The notes below the pieces were generated by a model, which was given only the letters and a program-made list of their open reading frames with translations, did not search any database and was not told the origin of the DNA. Made by a program: the position numbers and the translations under genes. This document shows positions 37,918-63,806 of a stretch of DNA of 64,000 nt, piece after piece. The stretch's first letter is position 1, and the number at the start of each line of letters is the position of its first letter. The DNA comes from Candidatus Doudnabacteria bacterium (lineage in GTDB: Bacteria > Patescibacteriota > Doudnabacteria > UBA920). The stretch is taken from positions 10,853-74,852 of the forward strand of contig CAWINB010000004.1 in assembly GCA_963837465.1 (NCBI GenBank), read 5' to 3'.

Positions 37918-37951
37918 CTTAGAGGCTGTCTGAAAAGATCCATTTTGCCGG
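37918..37951. repeat. dispersed 34-bp motif copy A (TTAGAGGCTGTCTGAAAAGATCCATTTTGCCGG)
   Basis: Near-identical copy at 56714-56747. Truncated copies at 40211-40230 and ~63686-63702. Confidence 0.7.
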
Positions 37952-37952
37952 C

Positions 37953-38657
37953 TTACATCTCCGCTTCCGGATTTTCGGAGACTATAAGCCCGGCGATTTT
38001 TTCCGCCACCTGCTCCGGCGTGTCTATTTCCATTGGCGGTCTGCCGGAAGCGGCGTTTTGGGTCCAATCCGGCCGCGCGCCCACGGAATGCCTGCCGAAA
38101 TCCGTGGCAGTCATTTTGGGATGAAAAACGCTGACCACAATTTTGTCTTTTTCCAGCTCTGCCCGCGCCGTTAACGACAGGGCGTTAAGCGCGTACTTGG
38201 TGGAGGCGTAAGCGGCCAGCCCGGGAAAATAATTTTTGGAAACGCGGGAGCTGATATTTAAAATTATCCCCCCGCCCTGCTTTCGCATTTGCGGAATTAC
38301 CGCCTGCATACCGAGCAGCGGCCCGTAAACATTAAGCTCCATAATTTCCTTATAATTTTCCAGGTCGATTTTTTCCACCGGGCCATACATTCCCCGGCCG
38401 GCGTTGTTAATCATAACGTCCACGCGCCCGTATTTTTCCATGGTCCGGCTGACTAAATTTTTAATGTCCGCGGCTTTGCGCGTATCGGTAACTACGGCAA
38501 AAGCATTGGATATGGTTTTGGCCAGTTGGTTTATTTTATCGGCCGAACGGGCGGCCAGCACGACTTTGGCGCCAAGGTCCGACAAATGTTTGGCCGTGGA
38601 CAGGCCAATCCCTGCCGAAGCTCCGGTTATAATTATAACTTTATCTTTTATGTCCAT
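37953..38657 (-). CDS. short-chain dehydrogenase/reductase
   Basis: TGASAGIG cofactor motif and catalytic YASTK. Confidence 0.8.
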   Translation of the reverse strand: MDIKDKVIIITGASAGIGLSTAKHLSDLGAKVVLAARSADKINQLAKTISNAFAVVTDTRKAADIKNLVSRTMEKYGRVDVMINNAGRGMYGPVEKIDLENYKEIMELNVYGPLLGMQAVIPQMRKQGGGIILNISSRVSKNYFPGLAAYASTKYALNALSLTARAELEKDKIVVSVFHPKMTATDFGRHSVGARPDWTQNAASGRPPMEIDTPEQVAEKIAGLIVSENPEAEM

Positions 38658-38712
38658 AAAAATATTTTTAATTATTATGTTTTGATTATAACAGAAAGTT
38701 GTTTAATAGATA

Positions 38713-38750
38713 TTAAAAACACGTAGGACACGGAGCTTCGTGATCCGTGT
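38713..38750 (-). terminator. hairpin ACGTAGGACACGGA-gcttcgtga-TCCGTGTCCTACGT
   Basis: Perfect 14-bp inverted repeat, 3' of the IS transposase gene. Confidence 0.55.
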
Positions 38751-38854
38751 CCTACGTTTGTTCTGTCCGTGTTTTCCGTGTTGATTATTAAATAAAACCT
38801 GTCTAAAAAATAATTTGCGCGCAGATAGAGTAGTTTCTAATCAAGACATGGCCC

Positions 38855-40141
38855 CTATCCGCCAGCGGCCATTTTTTGATGTTCCTTAAGTTTAATGTTT
38901 TTAAATACTGCTGACTTTGCTTCCTGCATAAGTTTTGCCCATCCGTTATGGCTGTGGCCGGTGCTGATGTCATCCAGTTGTTTTTCCGTCCGTCCTGGGG
39001 CAAGGTAGCGTGTCCAATTATCCAGAGTCTTCAGTTTGGCATAGGGAGTTAAGTAAATATCATATTTTTTCTTTTCCTTGCCCTTATGGTCAACCGTGGT
39101 GGTGGCAAAGCCGCAGGGTCTGTGGAAGTTCAGGTAAGGGTTAAAAAACTTCTGGTAAAATTCGTTAATCTCCTGCGCGTAGGTTTTCGGGATATGAGTG
39201 TAGCCCATATACTTTCTGATGACACTGCCGTTCTTGCTTTCCACTAAGGCATTGTCATTGCAGTGCCTGCTTCGTGATTTTGTCTGTTTAATAACTAACC
39301 TTCTAAGAATATCAGCTACCGTGTAATTAATGTTCTCGCTACCGTTGTCAGAGTGGAAGTTAATTACTGTAAAGGGAAACATTTGCTGCAACTGTTCAAA
39401 TATGGGTTTTAAATGCAGCTCGGAAATCGTTTCCACACAGAAGACCATTTCCCATTGGGTGACTTCATCCACCAGGTTTAAGTGGTAAATACCTTTCTCA
39501 TACTTGCCCAAAGCCAGCTTACGGTCGCCCTGATGCACGGTATCCACCCGCAGATAGCCCGGAATGCCCATATTGTCGGGTCTTCTTCTAATACCAATCG
39601 GGGTGCTTACTGGATCGGTTATGGTAAAGGTGGTGGAGTGGCTGGTGTAAATTCTTTTAACTCGCAGATTGTAGATATGGGAAACGGAAATATCTTTTAG
39701 TCTTTTAAACCGTTCGTCACCGAATATTTCATATTCAGCCATTAGGATCTGTTTGGTGGCATGGGCATTCATTCGTTGGTGCAGATTATCGGTTTCAGCC
39801 AGCAATAGTATTTCTGCCGGGCCATAAACAGTAACAAACCGGTTTTTCTTGCCCCAATTCGGGGACAAGGCCACTAACCCACTTCCTCTCTTGTTGGTAA
39901 TCAGTCGTTTTAGCTGTCTGCCCGACATGCCGGTCATCCGTTGGATATATTCCTTAATCTGCCCCTTGTCTTTTTTGCCTTTAAGCCGGACATAGCCAAA
40001 CTTGTTTAAGACGTTGTTAATCCATTCATATTTCTCCTTTCTGGAAACTGAGGTAAAATTAATTGCTGTATTGACCTTTAGAAATTCCTTGATTTGAGCT
40101 ATGCTCGTAACGCTTAAGTCTGTCATATCGATTGTCATCAA
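38855..40141 (-). CDS. DDE transposase, integrase catalytic core (IS481/ISNCY-like)
   Basis: FHSDNGSE and CNDNALVESKN motifs of the rve fold. 428 aa. Confidence 0.65.
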   Translation of the reverse strand: MMTIDMTDLSVTSIAQIKEFLKVNTAINFTSVSRKEKYEWINNVLNKFGYVRLKGKKDKGQIKEYIQRMTGMSGRQLKRLITNKRGSGLVALSPNWGKKNRFVTVYGPAEILLLAETDNLHQRMNAHATKQILMAEYEIFGDERFKRLKDISVSHIYNLRVKRIYTSHSTTFTITDPVSTPIGIRRRPDNMGIPGYLRVDTVHQGDRKLALGKYEKGIYHLNLVDEVTQWEMVFCVETISELHLKPIFEQLQQMFPFTVINFHSDNGSENINYTVADILRRLVIKQTKSRSRHCNDNALVESKNGSVIRKYMGYTHIPKTYAQEINEFYQKFFNPYLNFHRPCGFATTTVDHKGKEKKKYDIYLTPYAKLKTLDNWTRYLAPGRTEKQLDDISTGHSHNGWAKLMQEAKSAVFKNIKLKEHQKMAAGG

Positions 40142-40210
40142 GTCAGTGTGGCAGGCTTATGCTCTTTGTACAGCTTCCGGGCAACCCTCCGGTTTCAGCA
40201 ATTGGGGTAC

Positions 40211-40230
40211 CGTCCTCCTTTAGAGGCTGT
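40211..40230. repeat. truncated copy C of the dispersed motif (TTAGAGGCTGTCTCAAAGAT) abutting the IS end
   Basis: Matches the first 20 nt of copies A/B. It then runs straight into the IS inverted repeat AGGGGCCATGT. Confidence 0.55.
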
Positions 40231-40353
40231 CTCAAAGATAGGGGCCATGTTCCATTGTATAAGACTGATAGTTTACAAACCATCTTAAATATGCTATAAT
40301 CAGTATATCAACATTTAATGGCCCGTTAAATGGGCTGGAAATAAAAAATAAAA

Positions 40354-40677
40354 ATGGACACGAATATGCAAGGCCAACACCCACAAAGCGGCTGCAATTG
40401 CGGCATGTGCCAGATGCACCGCAACTTTTTTTTGCGCTGGATTTTGGGACTAATAATCCTGGCTATGGTTTTTTGGGTCGGGGTTAAAATAGGCGAATTT
40501 AAAGCCGGCTATTTTGAATACCAAAACTATCCGATGATGATGAATTCCTACTCCCCCGGCATGATGACGCGTCACAGCTACGGCGGCAGCGGTATGATGC
40601 AAACCGGATCTGGCGGCATGGATGGAATGGGCAACATGGATATGGGTACTGCGCCCGCCACTTCAACAGGAAAATAA
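40354..40677 (+). CDS. small Met/Gly-rich membrane protein
   Basis: One TM helix (WILGLIILAMVFWVGV), then GMM/GSG-rich tail. Confidence 0.35.
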   Translation: MDTNMQGQHPQSGCNCGMCQMHRNFFLRWILGLIILAMVFWVGVKIGEFKAGYFEYQNYPMMMNSYSPGMMTRHSYGGSGMMQTGSGGMDGMGNMDMGTAPATSTGK

Positions 40678-40697
40678 TCTCTGCTTAATTTTGCAAT

Positions 40698-40730
40698 AAA
40701 ATACCTCCCGCTAAGGCGGGAGGTATTTTA
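40698..40730 (+). terminator. hairpin AATACCTCCCGC-taag-GCGGGAGGTATT plus T-run
   Basis: Perfect 12-bp stem followed by TTTATTAT. Confidence 0.7.
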
Positions 40731-40957
40731 TTATCCTAAAACCCCAATACCCTTAAACCCTTGAAAAAACTAGCTTCTTATGATAAAATTGCCTAAGTTG
40801 ACTGGGTTTGGGGTTTTTAAATCTTATTACAATCATCTACCATCTACGCCGAAACGTTCCCGGATAAAACATCGGCCAGGAAAAGGGAAATATTTTTAAA
40901 AAAGAGTTTTAAGGCACGGGAAAATATTTTGAAAAATTTATAAATATTTTCTTTTGC

Positions 40958-41032
40958 GGCGCTATCATCTAACGGTTAGGATAAGTGGTTTTCATCCACT
41001 AAATCGGGGTTCGACTCCCCGTAGCGCTACCA
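40958..41032 (+). tRNA. tRNA-Glu (anticodon TTC)
   Basis: Hand-folded cloverleaf. Acceptor GGCGCTA/TAGCGCT (one G-U). D-arm ATCT/GGAT with GG in the loop. Anticodon stem AGTGG/CCACT, loop TTTTCAT (U33, anticodon TTC, A37). T-arm CGGGG-TTCGACT-CCCCG. Discriminator A, encoded CCA. Confidence 0.8.
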
Positions 41033-41049
41033 AAGAAAATATTTATAAG

Positions 41050-41146
41050 CTAACGGTTAGGATAAGTGGTTTTTCCGCCGGAGGCGGACCCGCCTCCGGC
41101 GGGCATCCACTAAACCTGGGGTTCGATTCTCCGTACCGCTACCAAG
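41050..41146 (+). pseudogene. partial duplicate of tRNA-Glu (D-loop to 3' end) carrying a 30-nt palindromic insertion in the anticodon loop; probable att-site remnant
   Basis: TAACGGTTAGGATAAGTGG-TTTTT-[CCGCCGGAGGCGGACCCGCCTCCGGCGG]-GCAT-CCACT...GGTTCGATTCTCCGTACCGCTACCA. The 5' acceptor strand is absent. T-arm diverged from the intact copy 17 nt upstream. Confidence 0.65.
41074..41103. repeat. 30-nt GC-rich palindromic element, copy 1 (in pseudo-tRNA)
   Basis: TCCGCCGGAGGCGGACCCGCCTCCGGCGGG. 28/30 identical to copy 2 at 57030-57059. Confidence 0.8.
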
Positions 41147-42630
41147 ACCAAACTTTCAGACAATTTAGATTTATTTTCCAGGGCTGCCTTAAGGGCAGCC
41201 CATTGTGTCTGCGGGACAAATTCAATTTTTTGATTTTTTAAAAACAGGTTCGAACCGAAAATTTTTTGTGCAGCCGATTTTTTGGGGTGCAGTTCGGGCG
41301 AAAGCGTTATTTCGCCCAATTTTTCTGCGTCTTTGAGCCATTGCGTCAGGGGTTCAAACCAGGCAGCCCGCTTTTGTTCAAGACGAGCTATTTGCTCCTC
41401 CAAAGACTTCTTTTCCAAGACCAGGCCATTCTTCTGTTCCCGGTAGTTATCCCTCTCAATATCCTGGTCTAAATACATATCCTGAAGTCTTTGGAGCCTG
41501 TGGTCAATGTCCCCAATTTTTGACCGCAGCTCTTGAACAAAAGCCGCCGTGGATTGTGTTGATTCCTGCCGTTTTTTCTCGGCCATAATTAACAATTTTT
41601 CTGCCCAATCTTTGGGCATGACAAATTGCTTTAAAGTTTCTGAAAGCTTGCTGATTAATACCTCGTCCCTGACAAACGGCTGGGAGCAAACAACATTTCT
41701 TTTAGTGCAATGGTAATAGACATAACGGTGGATATTGCCATTTTTTTGTTGTTTAGTCCTTTGCTCGGCCGTAACCCCACGGCCGCATTCGCCACAGTGG
41801 AATAAACCACAGAGTAGCTGGGGATTATTTTTAGTTTCCTTATGCGGCCGACCCCGATAGGCTAAAACCTCTTGGACTTTATCAAACAATTGTTTGCTAA
41901 CAATCGGCTCGTGCTTACCTTGGTATAATTCTCCGCCAAAACGGAATAAGCCACAGTAGATAGGATTAGACAAAAGGTAGGAAATTTTATCCCGTTTGAA
42001 AAGCTTATTGCCTCTAGAAATTAATCCATGACTTTTAAAAAATTCCCCTATATCCTCCAAACGGGATTGATCTTTGGCGTACAGCTCGAAAGCGGCCTTA
42101 ACAATTAGGGTTTTTCTTTGGTCAATAGCTATTTTTTTAGTTCTTAAATCATTAATGTAGCCAATGGGAGCAAGTCCCGGATATTCGCCCCGTTTGGCTT
42201 TTTCGTGCATGCCACGTTTAGTGTTTGCGCTTAAGTCACGTACGTATTGGTTAGCTATTCCAAACTCCATTTGCATCATTAAAACATTATCAGCCGAGTA
42301 ATAGCTTTTATCATGGGTTTGAATGTGCTGGATTATACCCTCTTGCAACATCCAGCTAATTTGGGCGGCATCCACAGGATTGCGGGCTAACCTGTCCAGC
42401 TTCCAGCAAACTATGCCTTGAGCTTCACCTTTGTTAATGCGGACAAGCATATCAGTAAATACAGGGCGACCTGGTCTTTTGGCCGACTGTTTTTCAACAA
42501 ATTCGGAGGCAATATTTAAGCCCTGTTCTTTTGTTAAGGCCCTCAAAACAGCAAGCTGATCTTCAATAGACCGGACTTGCTTGTCTTCTACATCTGTGGA
42601 TTTACGGGCGTAGAGGAAATAATTTGGCAT
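41110..42630 (-). CDS. large serine recombinase no. 2
   Basis: Catalytic-Ser motif YARKSTDVEDKQ. Recombinase domain. Zinc ribbon CGLFHCGECG...YYHC. Coiled-coil. The last ~37 codons lie inside inverted repeat IR1, and the ORF runs into the pseudo-tRNA. Confidence 0.75.
   Translation of the reverse strand: MPNYFLYARKSTDVEDKQVRSIEDQLAVLRALTKEQGLNIASEFVEKQSAKRPGRPVFTDMLVRINKGEAQGIVCWKLDRLARNPVDAAQISWMLQEGIIQHIQTHDKSYYSADNVLMMQMEFGIANQYVRDLSANTKRGMHEKAKRGEYPGLAPIGYINDLRTKKIAIDQRKTLIVKAAFELYAKDQSRLEDIGEFFKSHGLISRGNKLFKRDKISYLLSNPIYCGLFRFGGELYQGKHEPIVSKQLFDKVQEVLAYRGRPHKETKNNPQLLCGLFHCGECGRGVTAEQRTKQQKNGNIHRYVYYHCTKRNVVCSQPFVRDEVLISKLSETLKQFVMPKDWAEKLLIMAEKKRQESTQSTAAFVQELRSKIGDIDHRLQRLQDMYLDQDIERDNYREQKNGLVLEKKSLEEQIARLEQKRAAWFEPLTQWLKDAEKLGEITLSPELHPKKSAAQKIFGSNLFLKNQKIEFVPQTQWAALKAALENKSKLSESLVLVAVRRIEPQV
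41140..41252. repeat. inverted repeat IR1, left copy (113 bp)
   Basis: taccaagaccaaactttcagacaattt...aaaaacaggttcg. Reverse-complement identical to 44463-44575. Confidence 0.85.
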
Positions 42631-42854
42631 AAATTTTACTCTTAAAAATTAAAGGGGCAGTCCTGGCTACCCAGCTCCACCAAAACGAGTTTGGATTTGC
42701 TGGCAGGACTGCCACCTCAATAGCAAAAGGGCAAAATAAAATCGCTTTGGGATATAGAACTGGGTAGCAAGGATATTATACCATATATAAAATTTTCAGC
42801 AATTATTTCAGTTAGTTTTTGGCAATTTCGTCCTAAAAAGAGTAAAATTTTAGC

Positions 42855-44375: not shown

Positions 44376-44462
44376 AGCCACGCGGTGGGTTGGGTGGGTC
44401 AAGTGGCTTTGCGTTTTGGTGTTAATTGCGTTCTGCGGCCCCCAAAAAATCTTCCCTGTTCC

Positions 44463-44575
44463 CGAACCTGTTTTTAAAAAATCAAAAAATTGAATTTGTC
44501 CCGCAGACACAATGGGCTGCCCTTAAGGCAGCCCTGGAAAATAAATCTAAATTGTCTGAAAGTTTGGTCTTGGTA
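44463..44575. repeat. inverted repeat IR1, right copy (113 bp)
   Basis: cgaacctgtttttaaaaaatcaaaaaattgaatttgtcccgcagacacaatgggctgcccttaaggcagccctggaaaataaatctaaattgtctgaaagtttggtcttggta. Exact reverse complement of 41140-41252 as far as I can align by eye. Confidence 0.85.
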
Positions 44576-44934
44576 CCTTTATTCGATATTTTACAAACCT
44601 ATTATACCCAAAACAGCTAATTTTGGCCACCCAATTTAGCCTGTTTTAGCTGCCAAAATTAGCCAGCTAGGTGGTAGAACGGGTAGTAGAACAGGGTTCT
44701 ACCACTAAAACTCATAAACCCCTTGATTCTATTGACTCTGTCCCAAACAAAAACCGCGGACTACCTACCACCAGGTAATCAACTGAACGACCAATACTAC
44801 TACTAACTCTAATACTAAAATACCTTAAAAATACTACTCAAAATACATAAATCTTAACCAACTAACTAAACTAATCTAAACCAAAACACAAAAAACATCA
44901 AAACCTAAAAATCAATACAAAAGGGTGTGGGGGG
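44572..44934. repeat. inverted repeat IR2, left copy (~362 bp), contiguous with IR1 right copy
   Basis: ggtacctttattcgatattttacaaacc...aaaagggtgtggggg. Reverse complement of 50620-50981 with at least one mismatch (T/C at ~44676). Confidence 0.8.
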
Positions 44935-45015
44935 TTATACGTCTAAAACCCCAAGGAAACAAAAAAGGATTGTTAAATTAGCGCCAAACGATTTATCATC
45001 AACATAGAAAAAACT

Positions 45016-45036
45016 ATCCATTGCTGGATAGTTTTT
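45016..45036 (-). terminator. hairpin CTATCCA-ttgc-TGGATAG with A-run/T-run flanks (bidirectional)
   Basis: Perfect 7-bp stem, 40 nt 3' of the giant gene stop. Confidence 0.5.
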
Positions 45037-50619: not shown

Positions 50620-50981
50620 CCCCCACACCCTTTTGTATTGATTTTTAGGTTTTGATGTTTTTTGTGTTTTGGTTTAGATTAGTTTAGTTAGTTGGTTAAG
50701 ATTTATGTATTTTGAGTAGTATTTTTAAGGTATTTTAGTATTAGAGTTAGTAGTAGTATTGGTCGTTCAGTTGATTACCTGGTGGTAGGTAGTCCGCGGT
50801 TTTTGTTTGGGACAGAGTCAATAGAATCAAGGGGTTTATGAGTTTTAGTGGTAGAACCCTGTTCTGCTACCCGTTCTACCACCTAGCTGGCTAATTTTGG
50901 CAGCTAAAACAGGCTAAATTGGGTGGCCAAAATTAGCTGTTTTGGGTATAATAGGTTTGTAAAATATCGAATAAAGGTACC
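50620..50981. repeat. inverted repeat IR2, right copy (~362 bp)
   Basis: cccccacacccttttgtattgatttttagg...ggtttgtaaaatatcgaataaaggtacc. Reverse complement of 44572-44934. Confidence 0.8.
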
Positions 50982-51336
50982 AAAAAAAATGCCTATAAAT
51001 TAAAAATACCGGACTCATTCCGGTATTTTTAATTACCCGGGCAACAACCTTTGGGTCAAAATCAATAATCCATTGAATACCGCATTTGTCTCTAAACATT
51101 CCAAGATATAAAATTTAAAGGTTCCTATAAAATTTAAAGGTTCCTGACACCTTTGAATTCCTCCTTACATGAATGGTTGTCAGCCGTGCCAGAATTAGCA
51201 AATTGTATTCTTTTAAAAAATAAACAGCGTCCATGGATTAGTAAAAATAATTTGCCGAATGATAACTTCGACAAAATTTTTACAGAATAGCTAGTTGGGG
51301 GCAGTTATTATAAAAACCAATTTTTTATAGAGCGAC

Positions 51337-56590: not shown

Positions 56591-56713
56591 CCAACTTACC
56601 GACCTTTAGCGCATGGTTTATTAGAACCTATTCGCAAAATAGATTCTAATCAGATATGTCGCAAAGCCTGCAAAAACCAAGCATTTTCGATCAATATCTC
56701 CATCAACTTAAAT

Positions 56714-56747
56714 CTTAGAGACTGTCTGAAAAGATCCATTTCTGCCG
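56714..56747. repeat. dispersed 34-bp motif copy B (TTAGAGACTGTCTGAAAAGATCCATTTCTGCCGG)
   Basis: 32/34 identical to copy A at 37918-37951. Lies upstream of engB. Confidence 0.7.
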
Positions 56748-56808
56748 GAAATTCTGAAATTTCGCGACGAAAGCGACTTTCCGGACAGCCCTTAAAGGTC
56801 AACAGGAC

Positions 56809-57423
56809 TTGCGCGCAAATCCCGCAACCATGAACATAATATCTGCCAAATTTCTAAAAGGCGTAACCGGGCCGGACGAAAGCCTGGCGGACGGAATCCC
56901 GCAGGTGGCTTTTATCGGGCGTTCCAACGTGGGCAAGTCCAGCGTCATTAACACTTTAGCCAATAAAAAAGGTCTGGCCCGTACCAGTTCAATGCCCGGA
57001 CGCACCCAGGAAATAAATCTATTTTTGGTTTCCGCCGGAGGCGGATCCGCCTCCGGCGGAAATTTTTACCTGGTGGATTTACCGGGCTATGGTTTTGCCA
57101 AAGCCCCCAAAGATTTACAGGAACAAATCCAAAATTTGATTTACTGGTATTTTTTTGCTTCCGGTTACGGGCAAAAAAAAGTTGTCCTGATTATAGACGC
57201 CAACGTTGGCGCGACCAACAACGACATGGAAATGTTATTCAGCCTTAAGCAAGCCGATAAAGACATAATTATCGTGGCCAATAAAATTGATAAAGTAAAA
57301 AAAACCGCTCTTCAAAAACGGTTAAAAGAAATCCAAAATGTCGTCGGAGATTATAAAGTCATCCCCTACTCGGCTGAAAAAAGAACCGGGATAAACGAAC
57401 TGGCCAATGAAATTCTAAAATAA
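56809..57423 (+). CDS. engB: ribosome-biogenesis GTPase EngB/YsxC/YihA with a 10-aa palindrome-encoded insertion
   Basis: G1 VAFIGRSNVGKSS. DLPGYGFAK. NKIDK G4. The SAGGGSASGG insert between the LF and NFYLVDLPGYG segments is absent from typical EngB. Alternative start at 56830. Confidence 0.8.
   Translation: MRANPATMNIISAKFLKGVTGPDESLADGIPQVAFIGRSNVGKSSVINTLANKKGLARTSSMPGRTQEINLFLVSAGGGSASGGNFYLVDLPGYGFAKAPKDLQEQIQNLIYWYFFASGYGQKKVVLIIDANVGATNNDMEMLFSLKQADKDIIIVANKIDKVKKTALQKRLKEIQNVVGDYKVIPYSAEKRTGINELANEILK
57030..57059. repeat. 30-nt perfect palindromic element, copy 2 (in-frame within engB)
   Basis: TCCGCCGGAGGCGGATCCGCCTCCGGCGGA. Self-complementary over all 30 nt, centred on GGATCC. 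Confidence 0.85.
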
Positions 57424-57424
57424 A

Positions 57425-57452
57425 AATCCTGCCAATGCCGGCAGGATTTTTA
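57425..57452. terminator. bidirectional hairpin ATCCTGCC-aatgcc-GGCAGGAT between convergent engB and ORF 57470..57685
   Basis: Perfect 8-bp stem flanked by A-run and T-run. Confidence 0.65.
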
Positions 57453-57469
57453 TTTTAGAATTTCATTTT

Positions 57470-57685
57470 TTACATTTCCGGCAAGGCATCAAACTTAATC
57501 TTGAAGCCGGCCCACCATTTAGCCGTGTCGTCTGAGCTCATTTTCTTTATTTGCTCAGCAAGGTCAGGATGATTCTGCGTTACGTGGTCGGTGCCGTTTT
57601 TAACCATCTCCTCGGCAGTGTTGCCGGTAAGGACAACGCCGCAAGTCGCCGGGCCGCCCATTTGGGCACAAGTCATTTGTTTCAT
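57470..57685 (-). CDS. small DUF1059-like protein
   Basis: 71 aa. MKQMTCAQMGGPATCG start with paired Cys, as in small metal-binding DUF1059 proteins. Weak call. Confidence 0.35.
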   Translation of the reverse strand: MKQMTCAQMGGPATCGVVLTGNTAEEMVKNGTDHVTQNHPDLAEQIKKMSSDDTAKWWAGFKIKFDALPEM

Positions 57686-57739
57686 ATTTGATGATTGCTT
57701 TCTTTAAATTATTAATGTCTGCGATAACCTGCCTGTCAG

Positions 57740-57976
57740 CTACATTTGTTGTCGGTTTGGGCCGTTTGCGCCCTTCTTGCTAAAACCAAAAATATAAATA
57801 ATTTCCAGAATCCCGACTGTGTTAATTATCAACAACACCACATACCAGCCCGTATGGGAATTACGGGCCGCTTTCCATAAAGCTATGCCTTTCCAGATTA
57901 CGCTCCATATTAAAAGAACCAGCAGCAAAAGCTTTACGCGAAGAGAAATGACAAAAACCGGATAATTATGCCACAT
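57740..57976 (-). CDS. small two-TM membrane protein
   Basis: Two hydrophobic helices (LLLLVLLIWSVIW, VVLLIINTVGILEIIYIF). Confidence 0.35.
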   Translation of the reverse strand: MWHNYPVFVISLRVKLLLLVLLIWSVIWKGIALWKAARNSHTGWYVVLLIINTVGILEIIYIFGFSKKGANGPNRQQM

Positions 57977-58112
57977 ATAATTTTTCCTTTCATTTTAATT
58001 TTAATGCTTTAATTATATACCCATTTTTTATAACAAGCTATTTTTAAAACACCTCCCCGGTTTTGGGAAGGTGTTTTAAATTTAACCGCTTTGGTTAATT
58101 ACTGCGCCTGCT

Positions 58113-59087
58113 TTATTTTGCGGGAGCGGCAACCGGCTTGTTGCGGCCGTGGCCGAAATTGCCGCGCGCAAAAGTCCCGTCCATAATTTTAGTCGCTGTA
58201 ACGTTATCGCCTGAGGCTGTACCCTGGACTACCAAAGTATCGCCGGTCTGTATTTGGGATACTGTGATGGTCGCGCTGGTACCGCGGCTGCCGCTGGTTC
58301 CCGGAGTAAATTTGGTAACAGTAGCGCTTGAGGCGTCAACCGTGTAGGTGGCGCCGTTTTTGCCGGTCAGGGTAATGGTATTACCGCTGACTGAGGCAAC
58401 AGTCCCTACGGCCGCGGGTTTGGCGACAGGGCCTCTGCCATACCAGTTACCGAACACTCCATCGGTAATGCTGGTGGCGGTTATGTTATTTCCGGAAGCC
58501 GTACCCTGAACCACAACAGTGTCGCCAACCAAAATACCCGAAACGCTTATAGAACTCCTCGTGGGCTTGGCTCCGCTGGAACCGGGGGTAATTTTATTGA
58601 TTTTGGCGTTGGCGGCATCCACAGTATATGTAACGCCGTTTTTGCCGGTAACCGTCAGGCTGTTGCCATTAACCGCGGCAACTGTTCCGCTGGCCGCTGG
58701 CTTGGCCATTTTTCCCCGGCTCATGGACATCCCGTCCATAATTTTAGTCGCTGTAACGTTATCGCCTGAGGCTGTACCCTGGACTACCAAAGTATCGCCG
58801 GTCTGTATTTGGGATACTGTGATGGTCGCGCTGGTACCGCGGCTGCCGCTGGTTCCCGGAGTAAATTTGGTAACAGTAGCGCTTGAGGCGTCAACCGTGT
58901 AGGTGGCGCCGTTTTTGCCGGTCAGGGTAATGGTATTACCGCTGACTGAGGCAACAGTCCCTACGGCCGCGGGCGGAGTAAAAGACTTTGCCGTTTTACC
59001 GGCTGCCATGGCCGTGCCTCCGGCGACCAAGATCAGGGCAACAGCACCGGCTCCCATGCCCATTAAATATTTATTTCGCGTAGTCAT
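58113..59087 (-). CDS. secreted protein with three tandem ~100-aa repeats (DUF5666-like); repeats 1 and 3 identical at DNA level
   Basis: Signal/TM. Repeat unit AVGTVASVSGNTITLTGKNGATYTVDASSATVTKFTPG...GDTLVVQGTASGDNVTATKI. About 235-bp identical direct repeats at ~58157-58391 and ~58742-58973. Confidence 0.55.
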   Translation of the reverse strand: MTTRNKYLMGMGAGAVALILVAGGTAMAAGKTAKSFTPPAAVGTVASVSGNTITLTGKNGATYTVDASSATVTKFTPGTSGSRGTSATITVSQIQTGDTLVVQGTASGDNVTATKIMDGMSMSRGKMAKPAASGTVAAVNGNSLTVTGKNGVTYTVDAANAKINKITPGSSGAKPTRSSISVSGILVGDTVVVQGTASGNNITATSITDGVFGNWYGRGPVAKPAAVGTVASVSGNTITLTGKNGATYTVDASSATVTKFTPGTSGSRGTSATITVSQIQTGDTLVVQGTASGDNVTATKIMDGTFARGNFGHGRNKPVAAPAK

Positions 59088-59399
59088 ACTATTAAGTTCC
59101 TTTCTTAATTTTAATGATGGATATAAGACTTACAGGCTTGAGGCAACGATAAATATAATTATTTTGCCCCAAACGCGTAAGTCCTATATTTTAAACTTGT
59201 TGCTTAATTTGTTCTTCTACTTAGTAATACAACAGTGGCGGCGGTTATCTTTCATTCAGAATTAATTATACCCGCTCAAGAACCCCGCAAAAGTCTAATC
59301 AAAATTCACCGATACTCCCTGGTATCGACTCATTTTTCTTCAACTTTTTCGCTCCAATTCCTGAAATTTCGCTTCAAAAGCAATCTATTAAACGGGCTC

Positions 59400-59918
59400 T
59401 TAATAATCTTTGATTCTGGGATTGCGATATTGGCCATAGAATTGCCTGATTACCGGCAACCGGTGCTGGGCGGAAAAATGATAAAGCCTGTCGTGGAAAG
59501 ATGTAACATGCAGAACAAACGTAGCGGCGGCCAGCACGGCAATTATGCCCAGCAGAAGATAAACCAGCGGCTGGCGGTAAACAAAGGAATATTGCTGGAG
59601 CATAAAACCTAAAATTACTATAAGCAAAATACCGCCGAACACCGGGATCCAGGGAAACATCTCCAGATAAAAACCGAACCCCTGCTTACCTGCGTATGGG
59701 AAAAAAGAAAAGCTTTGCGATACCAGTAATTCAAAAACAAAACTGATTAAAAAAATAGCGGCCATAAGCAACAGCGCCGTACCCAAAGCGGCTAAAGCAG
59801 TCTGCAGCAAAAATTGCCGTCTGGACTTTTTTTTCAGCTCGCCGCTTTCAATTTTTTCCAAAATATCATTGGGTTGACTATCCATATTCTTAAATTCCGC
59901 CCGCAAATTATTTTTCAA
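59400..59918 (-). CDS. membrane anti-sigma factor (putative)
   Basis: 4-nt overlap with the upstream ECF sigma gene. Cytoplasmic N-domain, then multiple TM helices. Confidence 0.45.
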   Translation of the reverse strand: MKNNLRAEFKNMDSQPNDILEKIESGELKKKSRRQFLLQTALAALGTALLLMAAIFLISFVFELLVSQSFSFFPYAGKQGFGFYLEMFPWIPVFGGILLIVILGFMLQQYSFVYRQPLVYLLLGIIAVLAAATFVLHVTSFHDRLYHFSAQHRLPVIRQFYGQYRNPRIKDY

Positions 59919-60523
59919 ACAGGTTCTTTAGTGATTGAATCTTCATAGTATTTTTTTAATAATTTTCTTCCCCGCAGCAACCGCACTCCCACCGTATCAA
60001 TGGGAACATGCAGAATGTCCGCTATCTCCCTGTAATCAAAGCCTTCCATATAGTAAAGCAAAAGCGGTTCTTTGTATTTAAGGTCCAATTTATCCACGCA
60101 CAAACCCAGCAGTTCCTTTAACTGCCCGGCGTTTAATTCATCCTTATATTTTTCCCGCGGCAAATGGGGGAATAAAACGTCCAGGTCGAAAAACGGGATT
60201 TTTTCCAGCTTTCTCTTCTTAAGGAAATTAACGCATTCATTGTGGGCAATGCGGTAAAGCCAGGAGGAAAATTTGCGCCCGGTATCAAAGCTTTCAATAT
60301 TCCGGTAAGCTTTGATAAATGTTTCCTGGACAATATCCCTTCTGTCTTCCGCGTCGCTTAAAAACCTTCCGGCGTAGCGGGAAATTTTACCTTCGTAGCG
60401 TTCAAGCAGCCTGCCGAACAGTTCATTTTGCCCGGCTTGGATTTGGCCGGCGATATATTCGTCGCTTTGTTCACCGCTTTGTCCGTCATTATGGATTCCT
60501 TCTGGCAGAGAGTTGGGCTCCAT
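59915..60523 (-). CDS. ECF-type RNA polymerase sigma factor (sigma-70 regions 2 and 4)
   Basis: Region 2 FSSWLYRIAHNECVNFLKKRK. Region 4 HTH YREIADILHVPIDTVGVRLLRGRKLL. Confidence 0.75.
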   Translation of the reverse strand: MEPNSLPEGIHNDGQSGEQSDEYIAGQIQAGQNELFGRLLERYEGKISRYAGRFLSDAEDRRDIVQETFIKAYRNIESFDTGRKFSSWLYRIAHNECVNFLKKRKLEKIPFFDLDVLFPHLPREKYKDELNAGQLKELLGLCVDKLDLKYKEPLLLYYMEGFDYREIADILHVPIDTVGVRLLRGRKLLKKYYEDSITKEPV

Positions 60524-60919
60524 AGGCGCTTTGATTCCGATAGTTAATACAGTTAACCTGGGGCTTTTCTTTCATCCGGCCCGCCAAGAAACTCTCCGGA
60601 AAGTCGCTTTCGTGATGAAATTTCAGAATTTTATGATGATTGAGGGGGGAATTTTTTTATGACAATCGGCCAAAATTATGGAATTTAAGCCGAAATGGGC
60701 TTTGTGGAGCAGTTTCTTAACAAGCAGGGAATGGGCTATAACGGCCGCATTCCCTGCTTTATACCGGACTCTGCAATTCTTTGCTATATTTATAATACGC
60801 CGAAGGTAAACAGCTTGGTGCTTTTTTTGCCATACGATAAGTGGCCAAAAAGCCCATTTTACTAATTCCCATTTATGGATTAAAGTCATAAGTATAAGAT
60901 CATAATTTTAACTTGCTTT

Positions 60920-61606
60920 ATGGAAGCAAAATTTTTAGGCAAAAAGCTGTTGTTTTTGATCGCCCATCCCGACGATGAAAGTTTTGCCGCTGCGGGAACT
61001 ATGTTTAAAAATTTCCTGGCCGGCGGGCAAAATTATATTGTTTGCGCGACTTTGGGCGAGCGCGGCAAATCCCATATGGGCAGGAGTGTAACCCAAAAAG
61101 AGCTGAGAAAAATCCGCAAAAATGAACTTATTAAAGTTGCCGAATTTTTAAAGGTAAGCGGTTTGTATTTTTTTAAATTCCCCGATGCCGGGCTTAAAGC
61201 CCACGGCCGGGACTTGGAGGCAAAAACCAAAAAATTGGCAAAAAAAATTAAGCCGGATTATATTTTCAGCTTTGGCCCCGATGGCATGTCCGGCCACCTG
61301 GATCACATCGCGGCCGGCAAAGCCGCGCGTCAAGTAAGCAAAAAGCTCGGCATTCCTTTTGTGGCTTTTGCCGCTTCCCCGGGCCTGGTAAAAAGGTTTA
61401 AGGGGATTAAATCGCGCCGCGCCTACGGCAAGTACGCCAAAACCGTAACCCATCGAGCGCCCAACCTAAAAGTTAAAATTGATTTTAAAAATAAACTTAA
61501 AGTCCTCAGCTTCCACAAATCCCAATTCGGCCAAAGCACCATGCTGGCCGACGTACCCAAGCAAGTTAAGGATGGGTTTATGGATTATGAGTATTTTGTT
61601 GTTTGA
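60920..61606 (+). CDS. PIG-L/LmbE-family N-acetylglucosaminyl deacetylase
   Basis: AHPDDE metal-binding motif near the N-terminus, HxDH downstream (GHLDHIAAG). Confidence 0.7.
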   Translation: MEAKFLGKKLLFLIAHPDDESFAAAGTMFKNFLAGGQNYIVCATLGERGKSHMGRSVTQKELRKIRKNELIKVAEFLKVSGLYFFKFPDAGLKAHGRDLEAKTKKLAKKIKPDYIFSFGPDGMSGHLDHIAAGKAARQVSKKLGIPFVAFAASPGLVKRFKGIKSRRAYGKYAKTVTHRAPNLKVKIDFKNKLKVLSFHKSQFGQSTMLADVPKQVKDGFMDYEYFVV

Positions 61607-61633
61607 TTTGGAAACTATTTTAAAACGAATTTT

Positions 61634-62725
61634 TTGAACGATTTTGACAAAAAAACCATCCTGGCCATAGAAACCAGCTGCGACGAAACGGCCGCGGCGG
61701 TTTTGGAATTTTATAACGGCGGCAAATGGCCAAAAATCAAAACTCTGTCTTCGGCCGTCAAATCCCAAATTTCAATCCACAAAGCCTTTGGCGGCGTGGT
61801 GCCGGAAGCGGCCGCGCGCGCCCACGTAAAGAACATAAGACCGGTCGTGGAAAAAGCTTTGTCGGCATCAAGCTGTCGGCTGTCGGCAGTCAGCTGCATT
61901 GCTGTGACGACGGGTCCCGGACTCATCCCGTCATTAATAATAGGCGTGGAGTTCGCCAAGGCATTGTCTATGGCCACGGGCAAACCTGTAATCCCGGTCA
62001 ACCACATGCTTGGACATCTTTACTCGCCGTTTAAGGATAAAATGTTAAGGATTAAGGATTTTTTTCCGATTATCAGCCTGATAGTCAGTGGCGGACATAC
62101 GATGCTGGTGCTAATGCGGGATGAAAAAAACTACAGAGTTTTGGGGCAGACCGTTGATGACGCGGCGGGCGAGGCTTTTGATAAAGTGGCAAAGTTGCTG
62201 AAACTGCCTTATCCGGGCGGACCGGAAGTTGCCAAACTGGCGGAAAAAGGGAAACCGGATTTTGAATTTCCCAGGCCGATGGTAAATTCCAAAAATTACG
62301 ATTTTTCTTTCTCCGGACTCAAAACAGCTGTTTTATATTATCTTCGCGATAATGTAGGGGCTGGCTTTAGCCGCCCGAACCCTAAAACGGACGAGCAGGC
62401 TCTGCCCCTACAATTAAAGGCAAATATCTGCGCGGCTTTCCAGGACGCGGCCGTGGACGTTTTAGTTGCCAAAACCGTGCGCGCCGCAAAAGAGTTCAAC
62501 GCGAAATCCGTTTCCCTTTCCGGCGGCGTTGCGGCCAACCAAGCCTTGCGGAAAAAGCTGAAAGCGGAAAGCAAAAAGCTGAAAGCGGAATTCTTTGTTC
62601 CGCCAATAAATTTATGCGCCGACAACGCCGAAATGATAGGTTTGGCCGCGGGGTTTATGCTGCATAATGGATTTAAGCCAAAAATTTATAAATCCATAAA
62701 GGCTGACCCTAATTTGGAACTTTAA
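61634..62725 (+). CDS. tsaD: tRNA N6-adenosine threonylcarbamoyltransferase TsaD (Kae1/Gcp family)
   Basis: ILAIETSCDETAAAV, VPEAAARAH, TTGPGLIPSLIIGV, HMLGHLY signature motifs. Confidence 0.85.
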   Translation: MNDFDKKTILAIETSCDETAAAVLEFYNGGKWPKIKTLSSAVKSQISIHKAFGGVVPEAAARAHVKNIRPVVEKALSASSCRLSAVSCIAVTTGPGLIPSLIIGVEFAKALSMATGKPVIPVNHMLGHLYSPFKDKMLRIKDFFPIISLIVSGGHTMLVLMRDEKNYRVLGQTVDDAAGEAFDKVAKLLKLPYPGGPEVAKLAEKGKPDFEFPRPMVNSKNYDFSFSGLKTAVLYYLRDNVGAGFSRPNPKTDEQALPLQLKANICAAFQDAAVDVLVAKTVRAAKEFNAKSVSLSGGVAANQALRKKLKAESKKLKAEFFVPPINLCADNAEMIGLAAGFMLHNGFKPKIYKSIKADPNLEL

Positions 62726-62778
62726 CTGTTTTTTAATTACCTCTTGATATAATCCGGTTATATATAATTTATAATATT

Positions 62779-63561
62779 ATGCTTACCTTAAATAAATTTA
62801 GCGCCTTTTGGGCATCGGTCCTGCTGCTGGGTTTTACCGCGACTTTTTTGCTCATACCCAGGAGCGCCGATGTCCTTCTTGCCAGGTATAATCAAAATTA
62901 TCCCTACTACAACAATTATTATCCTAACAACAATAACGGCAACTATTATAATTATAATTCCCAGCCCAGTGGCAGCATTTACCAGCAGGCGCCGGTTACT
63001 TATTTAAATGTAAACCCGAACCCCGTGTATCCAAGTTATCCCAATTATCCTGTTTACGGCACCGCCCCGACTTCCGGATCCGGCAATAATTTAAGCGGCA
63101 ACTTTAGCCTGACATCCAACAATGATTACCGCGTGGGACAAACGCCGACTTACACTATTTCCGCGCCATCAAACTGGGACGGACAAATTATTAATTGGAC
63201 CAGTTCCCACAACGGCATAAGCAGCCAAACTACTTTTAGCTTAAACTCGAGCGGACAATGGACCGCTTCGGGCAACACCTGGGGCTACGGCGATGTGGGC
63301 TCGTGGCAAAAAACCGCGAACATTAACGGCGTCTCCCAAACTTTAAGCTTCAGCGTGCAAAATTGTGGCGGCACTCCGGTTGTTAATAACCCCTATCCCA
63401 GTAATAACGATGGCTTTGGTAATACCATTGGCGGCTCAACCGTAAGCTCAGGCGGCGGGCTAATTGGCGGGTCCGTAGGCGGCTACGGCCTCCAGACAAT
63501 AGGCGGCTCGGTTTACGGCTCAGGCTACCAAACTATTGGCGGCTCCACTGCTTTTAATTAG
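62779..63561 (+). CDS. secreted Tyr/Asn/Gly-rich low-complexity protein
   Basis: Signal/TM. YYNNYYPNNNNGNYYNY and GGS.GGYGLQTIGGS repeats. Confidence 0.4.
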   Translation: MLTLNKFSAFWASVLLLGFTATFLLIPRSADVLLARYNQNYPYYNNYYPNNNNGNYYNYNSQPSGSIYQQAPVTYLNVNPNPVYPSYPNYPVYGTAPTSGSGNNLSGNFSLTSNNDYRVGQTPTYTISAPSNWDGQIINWTSSHNGISSQTTFSLNSSGQWTASGNTWGYGDVGSWQKTANINGVSQTLSFSVQNCGGTPVVNNPYPSNNDGFGNTIGGSTVSSGGGLIGGSVGGYGLQTIGGSVYGSGYQTIGGSTAFN

Positions 63562-63689
63562 GGTTTGATTCGGTGGACTTGCCACTTTTCACTTTTCACT
63601 TTATACTACAAACAAGCTTATGTTCCGGCTGTCACCGGAATTCATCGTTGAGGTGAAAGCATTGGAAGAAATTGCGGCTGTCTGAATCC

Positions 63690-63806
63690 AAAGCTGCAAA
63701 ACTAGATCCAATCGGGGTTGCCCGTTAACAGCAAGAAACCAAGTATACTTCACGATGGTACCGCCAGCGATGGCTTGTGAACACCAATTTTTGGTGTTTT
63801 TTGTTT
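63690..63806 (+). promoter_or_regulatory. possible T-box-like leader / attenuator upstream of valS (low confidence)
   Basis: GATGGTACCGCC resembles the T-box core GGTGGNACCGCG, with UGGU able to pair with the ACCA end of tRNA-Val. It is followed by the ACACCAA-ttt-TTGGTGT hairpin plus T-run at 63783-63806. Confidence 0.25.

What the first reader, a model, noticed from the sequence alone, without database searches (positions are those of the whole stretch)
37918..63702. Dispersed 34-bp motif with one copy truncated by an IS insertion
TTAGAGGCTGTCTGAAAAGATCCATTTTGCCGG (37918-37951) and TTAGAGACTGTCTGAAAAGATCCATTTCTGCCGG (56714-56747) are near-identical and intergenic, but are oriented differently relative to their neighbouring genes. 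This argues for a DNA-level element rather than an RNA leader. A third copy (40211-40230) stops after ...CTGTCTCAAAGAT exactly where the IS inverted repeat (AGGGGCCATGT) begins, so the IS apparently inserted into this motif. A further partial match (GGCTGTCTGAATCCAAAG) lies at ~63686-63702 in the valS leader. The motif could be a small repeat family, a protein-binding site, or the preferred target of this IS, as some IS families target REP sequences.
Basis: seen in the sequence. Interest (0 to 1): 0.55.

Follow-up and report, generated by a model that had tools for sequence, protein, structure and literature searches.

The report
Decaying palindromic repeat; promoter-seeking IS
The 34-bp motif is the end-arm of a small, low-copy palindromic repeat scattered in a Candidatus Doudnabacteria (CPR) genome; the supposedly "truncated" third copy is a normal internal part of an insertion sequence, and that insertion sequence turns out to land exactly 5 bp upstream of the -35 box of gene promoters.

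Summary
Copies A (37919-37951) and B (56715-48) are real, near-identical and far beyond chance. The claimed fourth copy (~63675-89) is background. The third copy, C (40220-39), is not a motif cut by an IS. It lies inside the IS (38829-40266, 1438 bp, 5-bp target duplication GATAG), and IS relatives carry homologous sequence at the same place.

A metagenome contig (L008) shows what the motif is: the 5' arm of a 161-nt nested palindrome. B is an internally deleted copy. 60590-60631(-) and 59353-86 are further fragments, and A is a lone arm. The element is absent from 185,579 species genomes and from orthologous sites in relatives. It has no target duplication and lacks the IS termini.

Best reading: a decaying MITE/REPIN-like repeat whose arm shares a ~21-nt block with this IS lineage.

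The IS's real target is more interesting. In seven independent insertions (39-100% transposase identity, four bacterial groups), the transposase-proximal end sits 5 bp upstream of a -35 hexamer followed by a -10 box (six complete flanks; the seventh is cut off after a perfect -35). An eighth case is borderline. This resembles the dif-hunting IS1202 family.

The parts
37919..37951 (+). Copy A: a solitary 5' arm of the palindromic element (TTAGAGGCTGTCTGAAAAGATCCATTTTGCCGG). It lies between the stop codon of an SDR gene (37953-38657, -) and a hairpin followed by TTTTT that precedes the 317-aa gene (36913-37866, -).
   Evidence: nhmmer E=1.9e-9; neighbouring genes
56715..56748 (+). Copy B, 5' arm. 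It is identical over 31 nt to the 5' arm of the complete element in L008.
   Evidence: nhmmer E=5e-11
56749..56790 (+). Copy B, 3' half: AAATTCTGAAAT, then the side hairpin TTCGCGACGAAAGCGA, then a degenerate 3' arm CTTTCCGGACAGCCC. B as a whole (56715-56790) is an internally deleted version of the L008 element. It sits 40 nt upstream of the EngB start codon (56830).
   Evidence: (I3); nhmmer E=6e-13
60590..60631 (-). Copy E: the 3' half of the element (90% identical to B's), upstream of the ECF sigma-factor gene (59915-60523, -). A very degenerate 5' arm may follow at about 60632-60690.
   Evidence: (I3); nhmmer E=1.7e-11; sigma-factor domains
59353..59386 (+). Copy F: a fragment of the 3'-half module (…AATTCCTGAAATTTCGCTTCAAAAGC…).
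   Evidence: (D19); nhmmer E=3e-6
40220..40239 (+). Copy C: a segment inside the IS (IS nucleotides 28-47, counted from the transposase-proximal terminus). It is the spacer between the terminal repeat and the subterminal repeat that are the likely transposase-binding sites. It shares a ~21-nt block with the element's arm.
38829..40266 (-). Insertion sequence, 1438 bp. Termini are AGTCTT… and …AACTACT, with imperfect ~31-bp terminal inverted repeats that include a perfect 14-nt core (38846-38859 / 40237-40250). It is multi-copy.
38855..40138 (-). Transposase gene (427 aa). The protein has an rve/DDE catalytic domain and a TnsB-like multi-domain fold.
38824..38828 (.). Target-site duplication GATAG, left copy.
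40267..40271 (.). Target-site duplication GATAG, right copy.
40272..40300 (+). The sigma70-type promoter that the IS abuts: TTTACA-17 nt-TATAAT with TG (11/12). It faces away from the IS towards the small-protein gene at 40354.
63675..63689 (+).
   Evidence: nhmmer E=2.9

Best explanation
The 33-34-bp motif is the terminal arm of a small, non-coding, palindromic repeat element of the MITE or REPIN kind.

The intact form, seen in contig L008, is 161 nt long. It has:
- terminal inverted repeats TTAGAG(N)CTGTCTGAAAAG / CTTTTCAGACAG(N)CTC;
- an inner inverted repeat;
- a short side hairpin (TCGC-7 nt-GCGA).

In this Candidatus Doudnabacteria genome the family is low-copy and decaying. There is one internally deleted copy (B), one copy with a degenerate arm (E), one fragment (F) and one solitary arm (A).

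Copy C is not a family member cut by an IS. It is a native segment of a TnsB-like DDE insertion sequence, the spacer between that IS's terminal and subterminal repeats. The element's arm shares a ~21-nt block specifically with this lineage's version of that spacer. The arm and the IS segment are therefore related by descent or by short-patch recombination.

Shown: the inventory of copies, the palindromic structure, the IS boundaries, the homology, and the absence of the element from relatives.

Inferred: the element is or was selfish, spread in trans by an unidentified enzyme, and now has no dedicated function. At most it has incidental effects, such as supplying a -35-like hexamer in L008.
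For: - A and B match far beyond chance.
- L008 carries the same arm (31/31 nt) as the 5' end of a 161-nt element. The 3' end of that element is the reverse complement of the arm core. It folds as a nested hairpin with dG -39.9 kcal/mol and z = -8.0.
- B contains both modules but is internally deleted and folds weakly, z = -1.5.
- Profile searches recover E and F as further 3'-half copies, at E = 1.7e-11 and 3e-6.
- The element is absent upstream of EngB in three relatives whose EngB proteins are 78-82% identical. Their spacers are 16-87 nt, against 239 nt here. It is also absent from about 60 kb of related DNA.
- An exact-pattern scan found no true copy in 185,579 species genomes or in viral contigs, and only L008 among JGI metagenomes.
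- The region is non-coding and has no Rfam match.
- IS boundaries rest on identical IS-sized contigs, a 5-bp target duplication and homology with related IS copies.
- The arm matches only the window's IS variant: 0 of 500 shuffles reach the score, while p > 0.15 against three other variants.
Against: - No target-site duplication is visible at B or at the L008 copy, and the element's tips do not match the IS termini. The usual hallmark of MITE mobility is therefore missing, and the mobilising enzyme is unknown.
- Only about five copies or fragments are known, from two sources. The rest of the 868-kb source genome could not be searched, so copy number is unknown.
- B, E and the L008 copy all point towards a gene start 40-69 nt downstream, which also fits a regulatory role.
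- The direction of the IS-to-element relationship is unresolved.
Confidence: 0.55

Rival explanations
1. The element is a cis-regulatory module: an operator, a promoter-proximal element or a structured 5' leader shared by a few genes (EngB, the ECF sigma-factor gene, and a glycosyltransferase-like gene in L008).
For: B, E and the L008 copy have the same orientation relative to a downstream start codon 40-69 nt away. In L008 the 3' arm supplies the -35-like CAGACA of a 10/12 promoter with an extended -10. E lies directly upstream of an ECF sigma-factor gene, a class that is often autoregulated (general knowledge).
Against: - A is a lone arm pointing into the 3' end of a convergent gene, and F is a fragment in yet another context.
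- The copies are truncated in different ways, not conserved as a unit.
- Orthologous EngB spacers in relatives lack the element and carry an ordinary TGCTAT(C/G)AT -10 box next to the ATG.
- No promoter-like site is predicted in B or E, and there is no Rfam match.
Confidence: 0.15
2. The arms are relics of former IS copies: transposase-proximal IS ends that lost 12 nt of the terminal binding site and the rest of the IS. On this view they are not parts of an independent element.
For: The arm shares a ~21-nt block with the IS subterminal spacer, specifically with this lineage's variant. If 12 nt (ACATGGCCCCTA) are removed from the IS end, the similarity extends further: TACAATGGA|TCTTTGAGACAGCCTCTAAAGG against CAAAATGGATCTTTTCAGACAGCCTCTAAGG (read directly from the sequences). 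The arms of B, E and L008 point towards a gene start, as the IS's proximal end always does.
Against: - A, B and L008 share identical boundaries on both sides of the arm. They are therefore copies of one another, not independent decay products.
- In L008 the arm forms the outer tip of a palindrome, with the terminus-like side facing inward. This is the opposite of what a remnant IS end would show.
- No promoter follows at the offset typical of this IS (my reading).
- The extra similarity beyond the 12-nt gap was not tested statistically.
Confidence: 0.12
3. A and B are att-like direct repeats bounding an 18.8-kb genomic island. The interval holds the SDR gene, the IS, tRNA-Glu plus a tRNA fragment, a large serine recombinase, a GapS1-like defence gene and a giant surface protein.
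For: A and B are direct repeats 18.8 kb apart. The interval contains a large serine recombinase, a defence-type gene and a duplicated tRNA fragment. Gene order upstream of EngB differs in every relative examined.
Against: - No tyrosine integrase is present. Serine integrases leave only very short shared cores, not 33-bp repeats (established knowledge).
- A and B differ at two positions.
- The same arm occurs in L008 as the tip of a 161-nt palindrome with no island context.
- Further fragments (E, F) lie outside the interval.
Confidence: 0.05
4. The motif is a DNA uptake sequence dialect. AGGCTGTCTGAA resembles the Neisseriaceae DUS GCCGTCTGAA.
For: The only support is the resemblance of the core, recalled from memory.
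Against: GCTGTCTGAA occurs only twice in 64 kb. No DUS-like word is over-represented. The organism is a CPR bacterium, not a member of the Neisseriaceae.
Confidence: 0.01

Closest known systems
Bacterial MITEs and REPIN/BIME-type palindromic repeats (for example Correia elements, ERIC, REP doublets)
   Same: The element is short (76-161 nt), non-coding and intergenic. It has terminal inverted repeats, folds into a long hairpin and is dispersed. It occurs as full, internally deleted and solitary-arm forms, and part of its arm resembles a resident IS. In one case it contributes a promoter hexamer.
   Different: No target-site duplication was found. The tips do not match the termini of the resident IS. 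No RAYT/Y1 transposase was seen in the window. Known copy number is very low. The host is a reduced CPR genome, and three literature searches touching on CPR or MITE repeats turned up no description of such repeats in CPR bacteria.
IS1202 family, ISAjo2/ISAba32 subgroup ('dif hunters'; PMC10132070, bioRxiv 10.1101/2022.12.17.520857). Compared with the IS, not the motif.
   Same: About 1.4-1.5 kb, with a single TnsB-like DDE transposase of about 430-460 aa and imperfect terminal inverted repeats. A second internal copy of the repeat core lies near the end. The target duplication is 5 bp. Insertion is in a fixed orientation exactly 5 bp from a site bound by a host protein complex. No TnsC or TniQ helper genes are present.
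   Different: - The target is a -35/-10 promoter, not a XerC/XerD site. The flanks lack the CATAA-N6-TTATG core.
- The termini are AGT…ACT, not TGT…ACA.
- The residue seven positions after the catalytic E is I (with R at +8), not Q.
- Identity to plasmid proteins annotated as ISNCY is only about 24%.
- NCBIfam gives only weak IS3 and IS481 hits.
Tn7 and other Tn7-like transposons, including CAST elements (TnsB transposase with dedicated target selectors)
   Same: These are the best structural matches for the transposase: TnsB of a type V-K CAST element at E ~1e-7, and Tn7 TnsB is also recovered. They likewise have several transposase-binding repeats at the ends, a 5-bp target duplication and orientation-specific insertion next to a recognised site ('safe haven').
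   Different: The IS has no TnsA, TnsC, TniQ/TnsD or Cas genes. It is 1.4 kb with one gene, so the transposase itself or a host factor must choose the target.
Eukaryotic promoter-targeting retroelements (Ty3 at Pol III start sites, Tf1 at Pol II promoters). An analogy drawn from general knowledge.
   Same: Integration occurs at a fixed position relative to the transcription machinery's binding site, which spares coding sequence.
   Different: The enzymes are related only at the level of the RNase H-fold catalytic core, and the hosts and recognition partners are entirely different.

Membership tests
MITE derived from or mobilised by the resident IS | Terminal inverted repeats that match the termini of the parent IS | tested here: not met
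   The element's tips are TTAGAG…/…CTC(A)TAA. The IS termini are AGTCTTATACAATGG…/…TTAGAAACTACT. The only shared sequence is an internal IS segment, nucleotides 28-47.
MITE derived from or mobilised by the resident IS | A target-site duplication of the same length as the parent IS makes (5 bp) | tested here: not met
   The flanks of B (…AAATC|TTAGAG … CCCTT|AAAGG) and of the L008 copy (…TTACT|TTAGAG … GGCT|CATAA) show no direct repeat.
MITE (generic) | Short, non-coding, with terminal inverted repeats, in multiple dispersed copies and showing presence/absence polymorphism | tested here: inconclusive
   Size, inverted repeats and lack of coding capacity are met. The element is absent at the orthologous EngB spacer in three relatives. 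Only about five copies or fragments are known from two sources, and the source genome could not be scanned beyond the window.
REP / REPIN | Inverted doublets of a short palindromic unit forming a hairpin, also found as singlets | tested here: met
   L008 has two inverted arms and a nested hairpin with z = -8. A is a singlet.
REP / REPIN | An associated RAYT (Y1/IS200-like) transposase in the genome, and high copy number | not testable with these tools
   No Y1 transposase is among the 20 window proteins scanned. The rest of the 868-kb genome was not retrievable.
DNA uptake sequence | Strong genome-wide over-representation (roughly one per kb) of a 10-12-mer | tested here: not met
   Two exact copies in 64 kb; no over-represented DUS-like word.
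Known structured RNA family (Rfam) | A covariance-model match at or near the gathering score | tested here: not met
   The only match in the whole window is a tRNA. Permissive scans of A, B and the L008 element gave nothing above about 20 bits against thresholds of 41-57 bits.
Integrase att repeats of a genomic island | A tyrosine integrase next to identical direct repeats, with an empty site in relatives | tested here: not met
   No tyrosine integrase is present. The repeats differ at two positions. The same arm is part of a palindrome elsewhere. An empty site could not be retrieved.
IS1202 family (for the IS) | Outer ends 5'-TGT … ACA-3' | tested here: not met
   The ends are 5'-AGT…ACT-3' in the window, L009, L026, L027 and L031, and AGC…ACT in L028 and L032.
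IS1202 family (for the IS) | Q at the seventh position after the catalytic E | tested here: not met
   E300-S-K-N-G-S-V-I307-R308: position +7 is I, and R308 is invariant.
IS1202 family (for the IS) | A TnsB-like transposase (N-terminal HTH domains, RNase H fold, beta-barrel, C-terminal domain) with no accessory Tn7 genes | tested here: met
   The AlphaFold model (pLDDT 76.9) has N-terminal helical domains, an RNase H core, a beta-hairpin or barrel at 342-363 and a long C-terminal helix. The best full-length fold matches are TnsB. The IS holds a single ORF.
IS1202 family (for the IS) | A 3-5-bp target duplication, a fixed orientation 5 bp from the target site, and a second internal copy of the repeat core | tested here: met
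   5-bp duplications are seen in the window, L009, L027, L028, L032 and L033. The offset is 5 bp and the orientation is constant. Direct repeats lie about 35 nt apart. The target itself differs: a promoter, not dif.

The most novel reading that the evidence does not exclude
The IS next to the motif belongs to a large, so far undescribed group of single-gene TnsB-like insertion sequences that act as 'promoter hunters'.

They integrate in a fixed orientation into the 5 bp immediately upstream of the -35 hexamer of sigma70-type promoters. They presumably do so by recognising promoter-bound RNA polymerase holoenzyme or sigma region 4, or the two hexamers directly. This would be a bacterial counterpart of Ty3/Tf1 targeting and a sister strategy to the dif-hunting IS1202 family.

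The dispersed motif would then be a by-product, a repeat built from a piece of this IS's promoter-proximal end.
Probability: 0.45. Interest if true: 0.8.

Novelty: new variant of a known kind. Interest (0 to 1): 0.5.

Why it matters
The motif itself matters little. It adds a small, decaying palindromic repeat family to a CPR genome, and it corrects a wrong reading: no motif was interrupted by the IS.

The result worth following up is the target choice of the IS. Every independent insertion examined, across transposases only 39-100% identical and hosts from CPR bacteria to Betaproteobacteria, has its transposase-proximal end 5 bp upstream of a -35/-10 promoter. An actinobacterial relative at 28% identity is borderline.

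If confirmed, this would be:
1. A new kind of 'safe-haven' targeting in bacteria. Insertion just upstream of a core promoter spares both the gene and its promoter, which is valuable in gene-dense CPR genomes below 1 Mb.
2. A one-protein system that reads promoters, useful for asking how a TnsB-like transposase can select a target without TnsC or TniQ.
3. A natural annotator of promoters in uncultivated bacteria.
4. A possible tool for placing DNA next to promoters.

Tried and rejected
- DNA uptake sequence: rejected on density.
- Known RNA family: no Rfam match at gathering or permissive thresholds.
- Genome-wide pattern search with GAGRCTGTCTGAAAAGATCC:
  - viral contigs gave 0 hits;
  - 185,579 species genomes gave 1 chance hit in a GC-rich Acidobacteriota sequence with unrelated flanks;
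  - JGI metagenomes gave 5 hits, of which 4 are chance matches and only L008 is real.
- Retrieving the source genome failed. Exact-protein look-ups for the SDR, the small protein, P0001 and P0122 all returned nothing. Copy number outside the window is therefore unknown, and the empty IS site could not be obtained.
- L008 is not syntenic with the window. Its 427-aa and 317-aa ORFs are unrelated to the window's ORFs of the same lengths.
- Related Doudnabacteria loci (about 60 kb) hold no copies.
- Att-site/island idea: no tyrosine integrase. The gene upstream of B is not orthologous to the one in L023, so synteny could not settle the question.
- MITE of the resident IS: no matching termini and no target duplication.
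- dif-like target for the IS: the flanks lack the conserved XerC/XerD inner palindrome (my comparison with tables in PMC10132070).
- Sequence search of the transposase profile against PDB: no hits. The phage collection also gave no hits, and an IS-terminus pattern found nothing in viral contigs.
- Literature searches for promoter-targeting IS elements or for CPR repeat families found nothing relevant.
- A possible extension of the arm-to-IS similarity across a 12-nt gap, and a possible similarity between the element's 3' half and the IS leader, were noticed by eye. They are not statistically supported (one search gives p = 0.14 for E) and are not relied on.


Full report
**Observation.** The window has 47% G+C. 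Its closest protein relatives are named Candidatus Doudnabacteria (Patescibacteria/CPR), and the source contig is 868,218 bp.

- Copy A is at 37919-37951 and copy B at 56715-56748, both on the + strand. They are identical apart from one substitution and one inserted base. A 27-nt core with up to 3 mismatches occurs twice, against zero in 100 shuffles.
- Both copies are intergenic. A lies between an SDR gene and a 317-aa gene, both on the minus strand. B lies between an 843-aa gene and an EngB-type GTPase gene, both on the plus strand.
- Copy C is at 40220-40239, nine bases to the right of the reported position.
- The reported fourth copy is at 63675-63689. It scores E = 2.9 with a profile of the arm, no better than random hits elsewhere.

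**The DUS lead.** The core AGGCTGTCTGAA resembles the Neisseria uptake sequence. However, GCTGTCTGAA occurs only twice in 64 kb, and no such word is over-represented. I dropped this lead.

**The IS, and why copy C is not a truncated motif.**
- The ORF at 38855-40141 (-) carries an rve/DDE domain.
- A perfect 14-nt inverted repeat lies at 38846-38859 and 40237-40250. Copy C therefore sits on the inner side of the right repeat.
- Two Logan contigs encode the identical transposase and match window 38829-40266 at 100%. One of them continues into a different flank.
- IS relatives with 84-89% transposase identity become homologous exactly at 40266 and stop being homologous exactly at 38829.
- GATAG flanks both termini, at 38824-38828 and 40267-40271. 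Relatives show their own 5-bp duplications: GTTCC and ATCAG.
- The IS is therefore 38829-40266 (1438 bp), and copy C is IS nucleotides 28-47.
- At that position the relatives form a graded series:

| IS copy | Sequence at the copy-C position |
|---|---|
| window | ATCTTTGAGACAGCCTCTAAAGG |
| L026 | ATCTTTGAACCAGCTTCTAACGG |
| L027 | ATCTTTGGACAAGCTTCTAACGG |
| L009 | ATCTTTATCTAGGCTTCTAACGG |

- The segment lies between a terminal repeat (IS nt 17-30) and a subterminal repeat about 35 nt further in. This arrangement is clearer in relatives L009, L028, L031 and L032.
- The IS did not insert into a motif, so there is no distal half to find.

**What the motif is.**
- The genome-wide pattern search found no true copy in viral contigs or in 185,579 species genomes. 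It found one in JGI metagenomes: L008, 45% G+C.
- In L008 the motif (31/31 nt identical to B) is the 5' end of a 161-nt element at 11017-11177. The element's 3' end, CTTTTCAGACAGGCTC, is the reverse complement of the motif core. There is also an inner inverted repeat (CTCCAAAATTCCG / CGGAATTTTGGAG) and a side hairpin (TCGCTACGAAAGCGA).
- The element folds as a nested hairpin at -39.9 kcal/mol, z = -8.0.
- The 40 nt after B (56749-56788) carry the same side hairpin and a degenerate 3' arm. B is thus an internally deleted copy that folds weakly, z = -1.5.
- The same 3' half recurs inverted at 60590-60631, upstream of an ECF sigma-factor gene, and as a fragment at 59353-59386. A is a lone arm.
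- Orthologous EngB spacers in three relatives are 16-87 nt long and lack the element. About 60 kb of related DNA has no copy.
- There is no Rfam match, no target duplication and no IS-type termini. No tyrosine integrase or Y1 transposase is nearby.

**Relation between the arm and the IS.** All arms (A, B, and both arms in L008) align with the window's IS spacer over about 21 nt, and 0 of 500 shuffles reach the score. Against the three other IS variants the alignments are not significant, p > 0.15. The arm and this lineage's IS segment are therefore related, either by derivation of the arm from the IS or by short-patch conversion. Which of the two applies cannot be decided here.

**Best explanation and rivals.** I favour a low-copy, decaying MITE/REPIN-like palindromic repeat (0.55). 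The rivals are:
- a cis-regulatory module (0.15), because B, E and L008 all face a start codon 40-69 nt away, and in L008 the arm supplies a -35-like hexamer;
- independent relics of IS ends (0.12);
- att repeats of an 18.8-kb island (0.05);
- a DNA uptake sequence (0.01).

**The IS's real target.** Reading away from the transposase-proximal terminus, each independent insertion shows the 5-bp duplication, then immediately a -35 hexamer, then 16-17 nt, then a -10 hexamer.

| Site | Flank | Match |
|---|---|---|
| window | GATAG\|TTTACA-17-TATAAT | 11/12, with TG |
| L009 type | GGAAC\|TTGCCA-17-TATAAT | 11/12 |
| L027 | CTGAT\|TTGCTA-17-TATAAT | 10/12 |
| L026 | GGTCA\|TTGACA… | contig ends |
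| L028 (46% identity) | GCTAC\|TTGATT-17-TACAGT | 8/12 |
| L031 (39% identity, GC-rich host) | GCAGC\|TTGACA-16-TATAAT | 12/12 |
| Polaromonas plasmid CP087967.1 (44% identity) | CACAC\|TGGGCA-17-TATGAT | 9/12 |

- The background frequency of such a site at a given position in these loci is 0.0069. That gives P of about 1.5e-11 for the five complete sites tested.
- The last three sites in the table were examined after the hypothesis had been formed, and all three pass.
- A Mycobacterium plasmid relative (28% identity) has TSD GCCAG and CTGGC|TTGCAC-18-TAGACT. This scores 7/12 but fits the actinobacterial TANNNT -10, so I count it as borderline.
- In the window, L009 and L027, the promoter faces a divergently transcribed gene.
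- The flanks do not contain the XerC/XerD inner palindrome (compared with tables in PMC10132070).

**Comparison with known systems.**
- The transposase model (pLDDT 76.9) matches TnsB of Tn7-like/CAST elements best, followed by IstA, retroviral integrases, MuA and Tn7 TnsB.
- The IS1202 family is the nearest known behaviour (PMC10132070; bioRxiv 10.1101/2022.12.17.520857). [quoted passage not shown]
- Two defining features of that family fail here. The ends are AGT…ACT, not TGT…ACA, and the residue at E+7 is I, not Q. I therefore do not file the IS in that family. It works like that family but on a different target.
- Six literature searches found no description of promoter-edge targeting by a bacterial IS or of CPR repeat families. 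This does not prove novelty.

**Verdict.** The motif is real, but it is an ordinary small repeat family. The unexpected and more valuable result is the promoter-edge targeting of the IS family.

Noticed in passing
window 38824-40300; L009 ~3868-5315; L027 ~4943-6390; L028 1408-2780; L031 ~1420; L032 1403-2818; L033 1075-2504: The IS family (1.4 kb, TnsB-like transposase, 5-bp target duplication) is always found with its transposase-proximal end 5 bp upstream of a -35 hexamer followed by a -10 box. The promoter faces away from the IS. This holds for seven independent insertions (six with complete flanks, one cut off after a perfect -35), plus one borderline case. P is about 1e-11 against background.
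   Followed up: yes
window 41072-41102 and 57029-57062; L023 1677-1710: A 31-34-nt GC-rich perfect palindrome (TTTCCGCCGGAGGCGGAyCCGCCTCCGGCGGAAA) occurs twice at 97% identity. One copy is in the anticodon-loop region of a partial second tRNA-Glu copy (41044-41135, not called by ARAGORN). The other is in frame within the EngB gene, where it encodes SAGGGSASGG in a loop whose length varies among relatives. A similar palindrome is intergenic in a relative. It may be a second small palindromic repeat family.
   Followed up: partly
window 41140-41252 / 44463-44575 and 44570-44933 / 50620-50983: Two abutting pairs of 100%-identical inverted repeats (113 nt and 364 nt). The first pair flanks the large serine recombinase and the GapS1-like gene. 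The second flanks a 1655-aa fibronectin/PG-binding surface protein gene. These could be invertible segments or an assembly artefact caused by orientation variants.
   Followed up: no
window 40958-41135: tRNA-Glu(TTC) is followed 12 nt later by a 5'-truncated duplicate of itself, right next to the 3' end of the large serine recombinase gene. This looks like the scar of an element that integrated into the tRNA gene.
   Followed up: no
window 58175-58973: Three tandem ~275-nt repeats, two of them 100% identical over 244 nt, inside the DUF5666 protein gene (58113-59087, -).
   Followed up: no
window 37866 and 40300-40354; L023 ~9985; L025 ~9990; L008 ~11190: Genes in this lineage are typically preceded by an extended -10 box (TGCTATAAT, TGCTATCAT or TGCTATGAT). 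In several cases only about 7-10 nt separate the box from the ATG and there is no Shine-Dalgarno sequence, which suggests leaderless or very short-leader mRNAs.
   Followed up: no
L032 908-1408 (Polaromonas plasmid CP087967.1): The IS relative there has inserted at the 3' end of a gene annotated as a TniQ-family protein. The annotated gene ends exactly at the IS terminus, so the gene is probably truncated or fused by the insertion.
   Followed up: no
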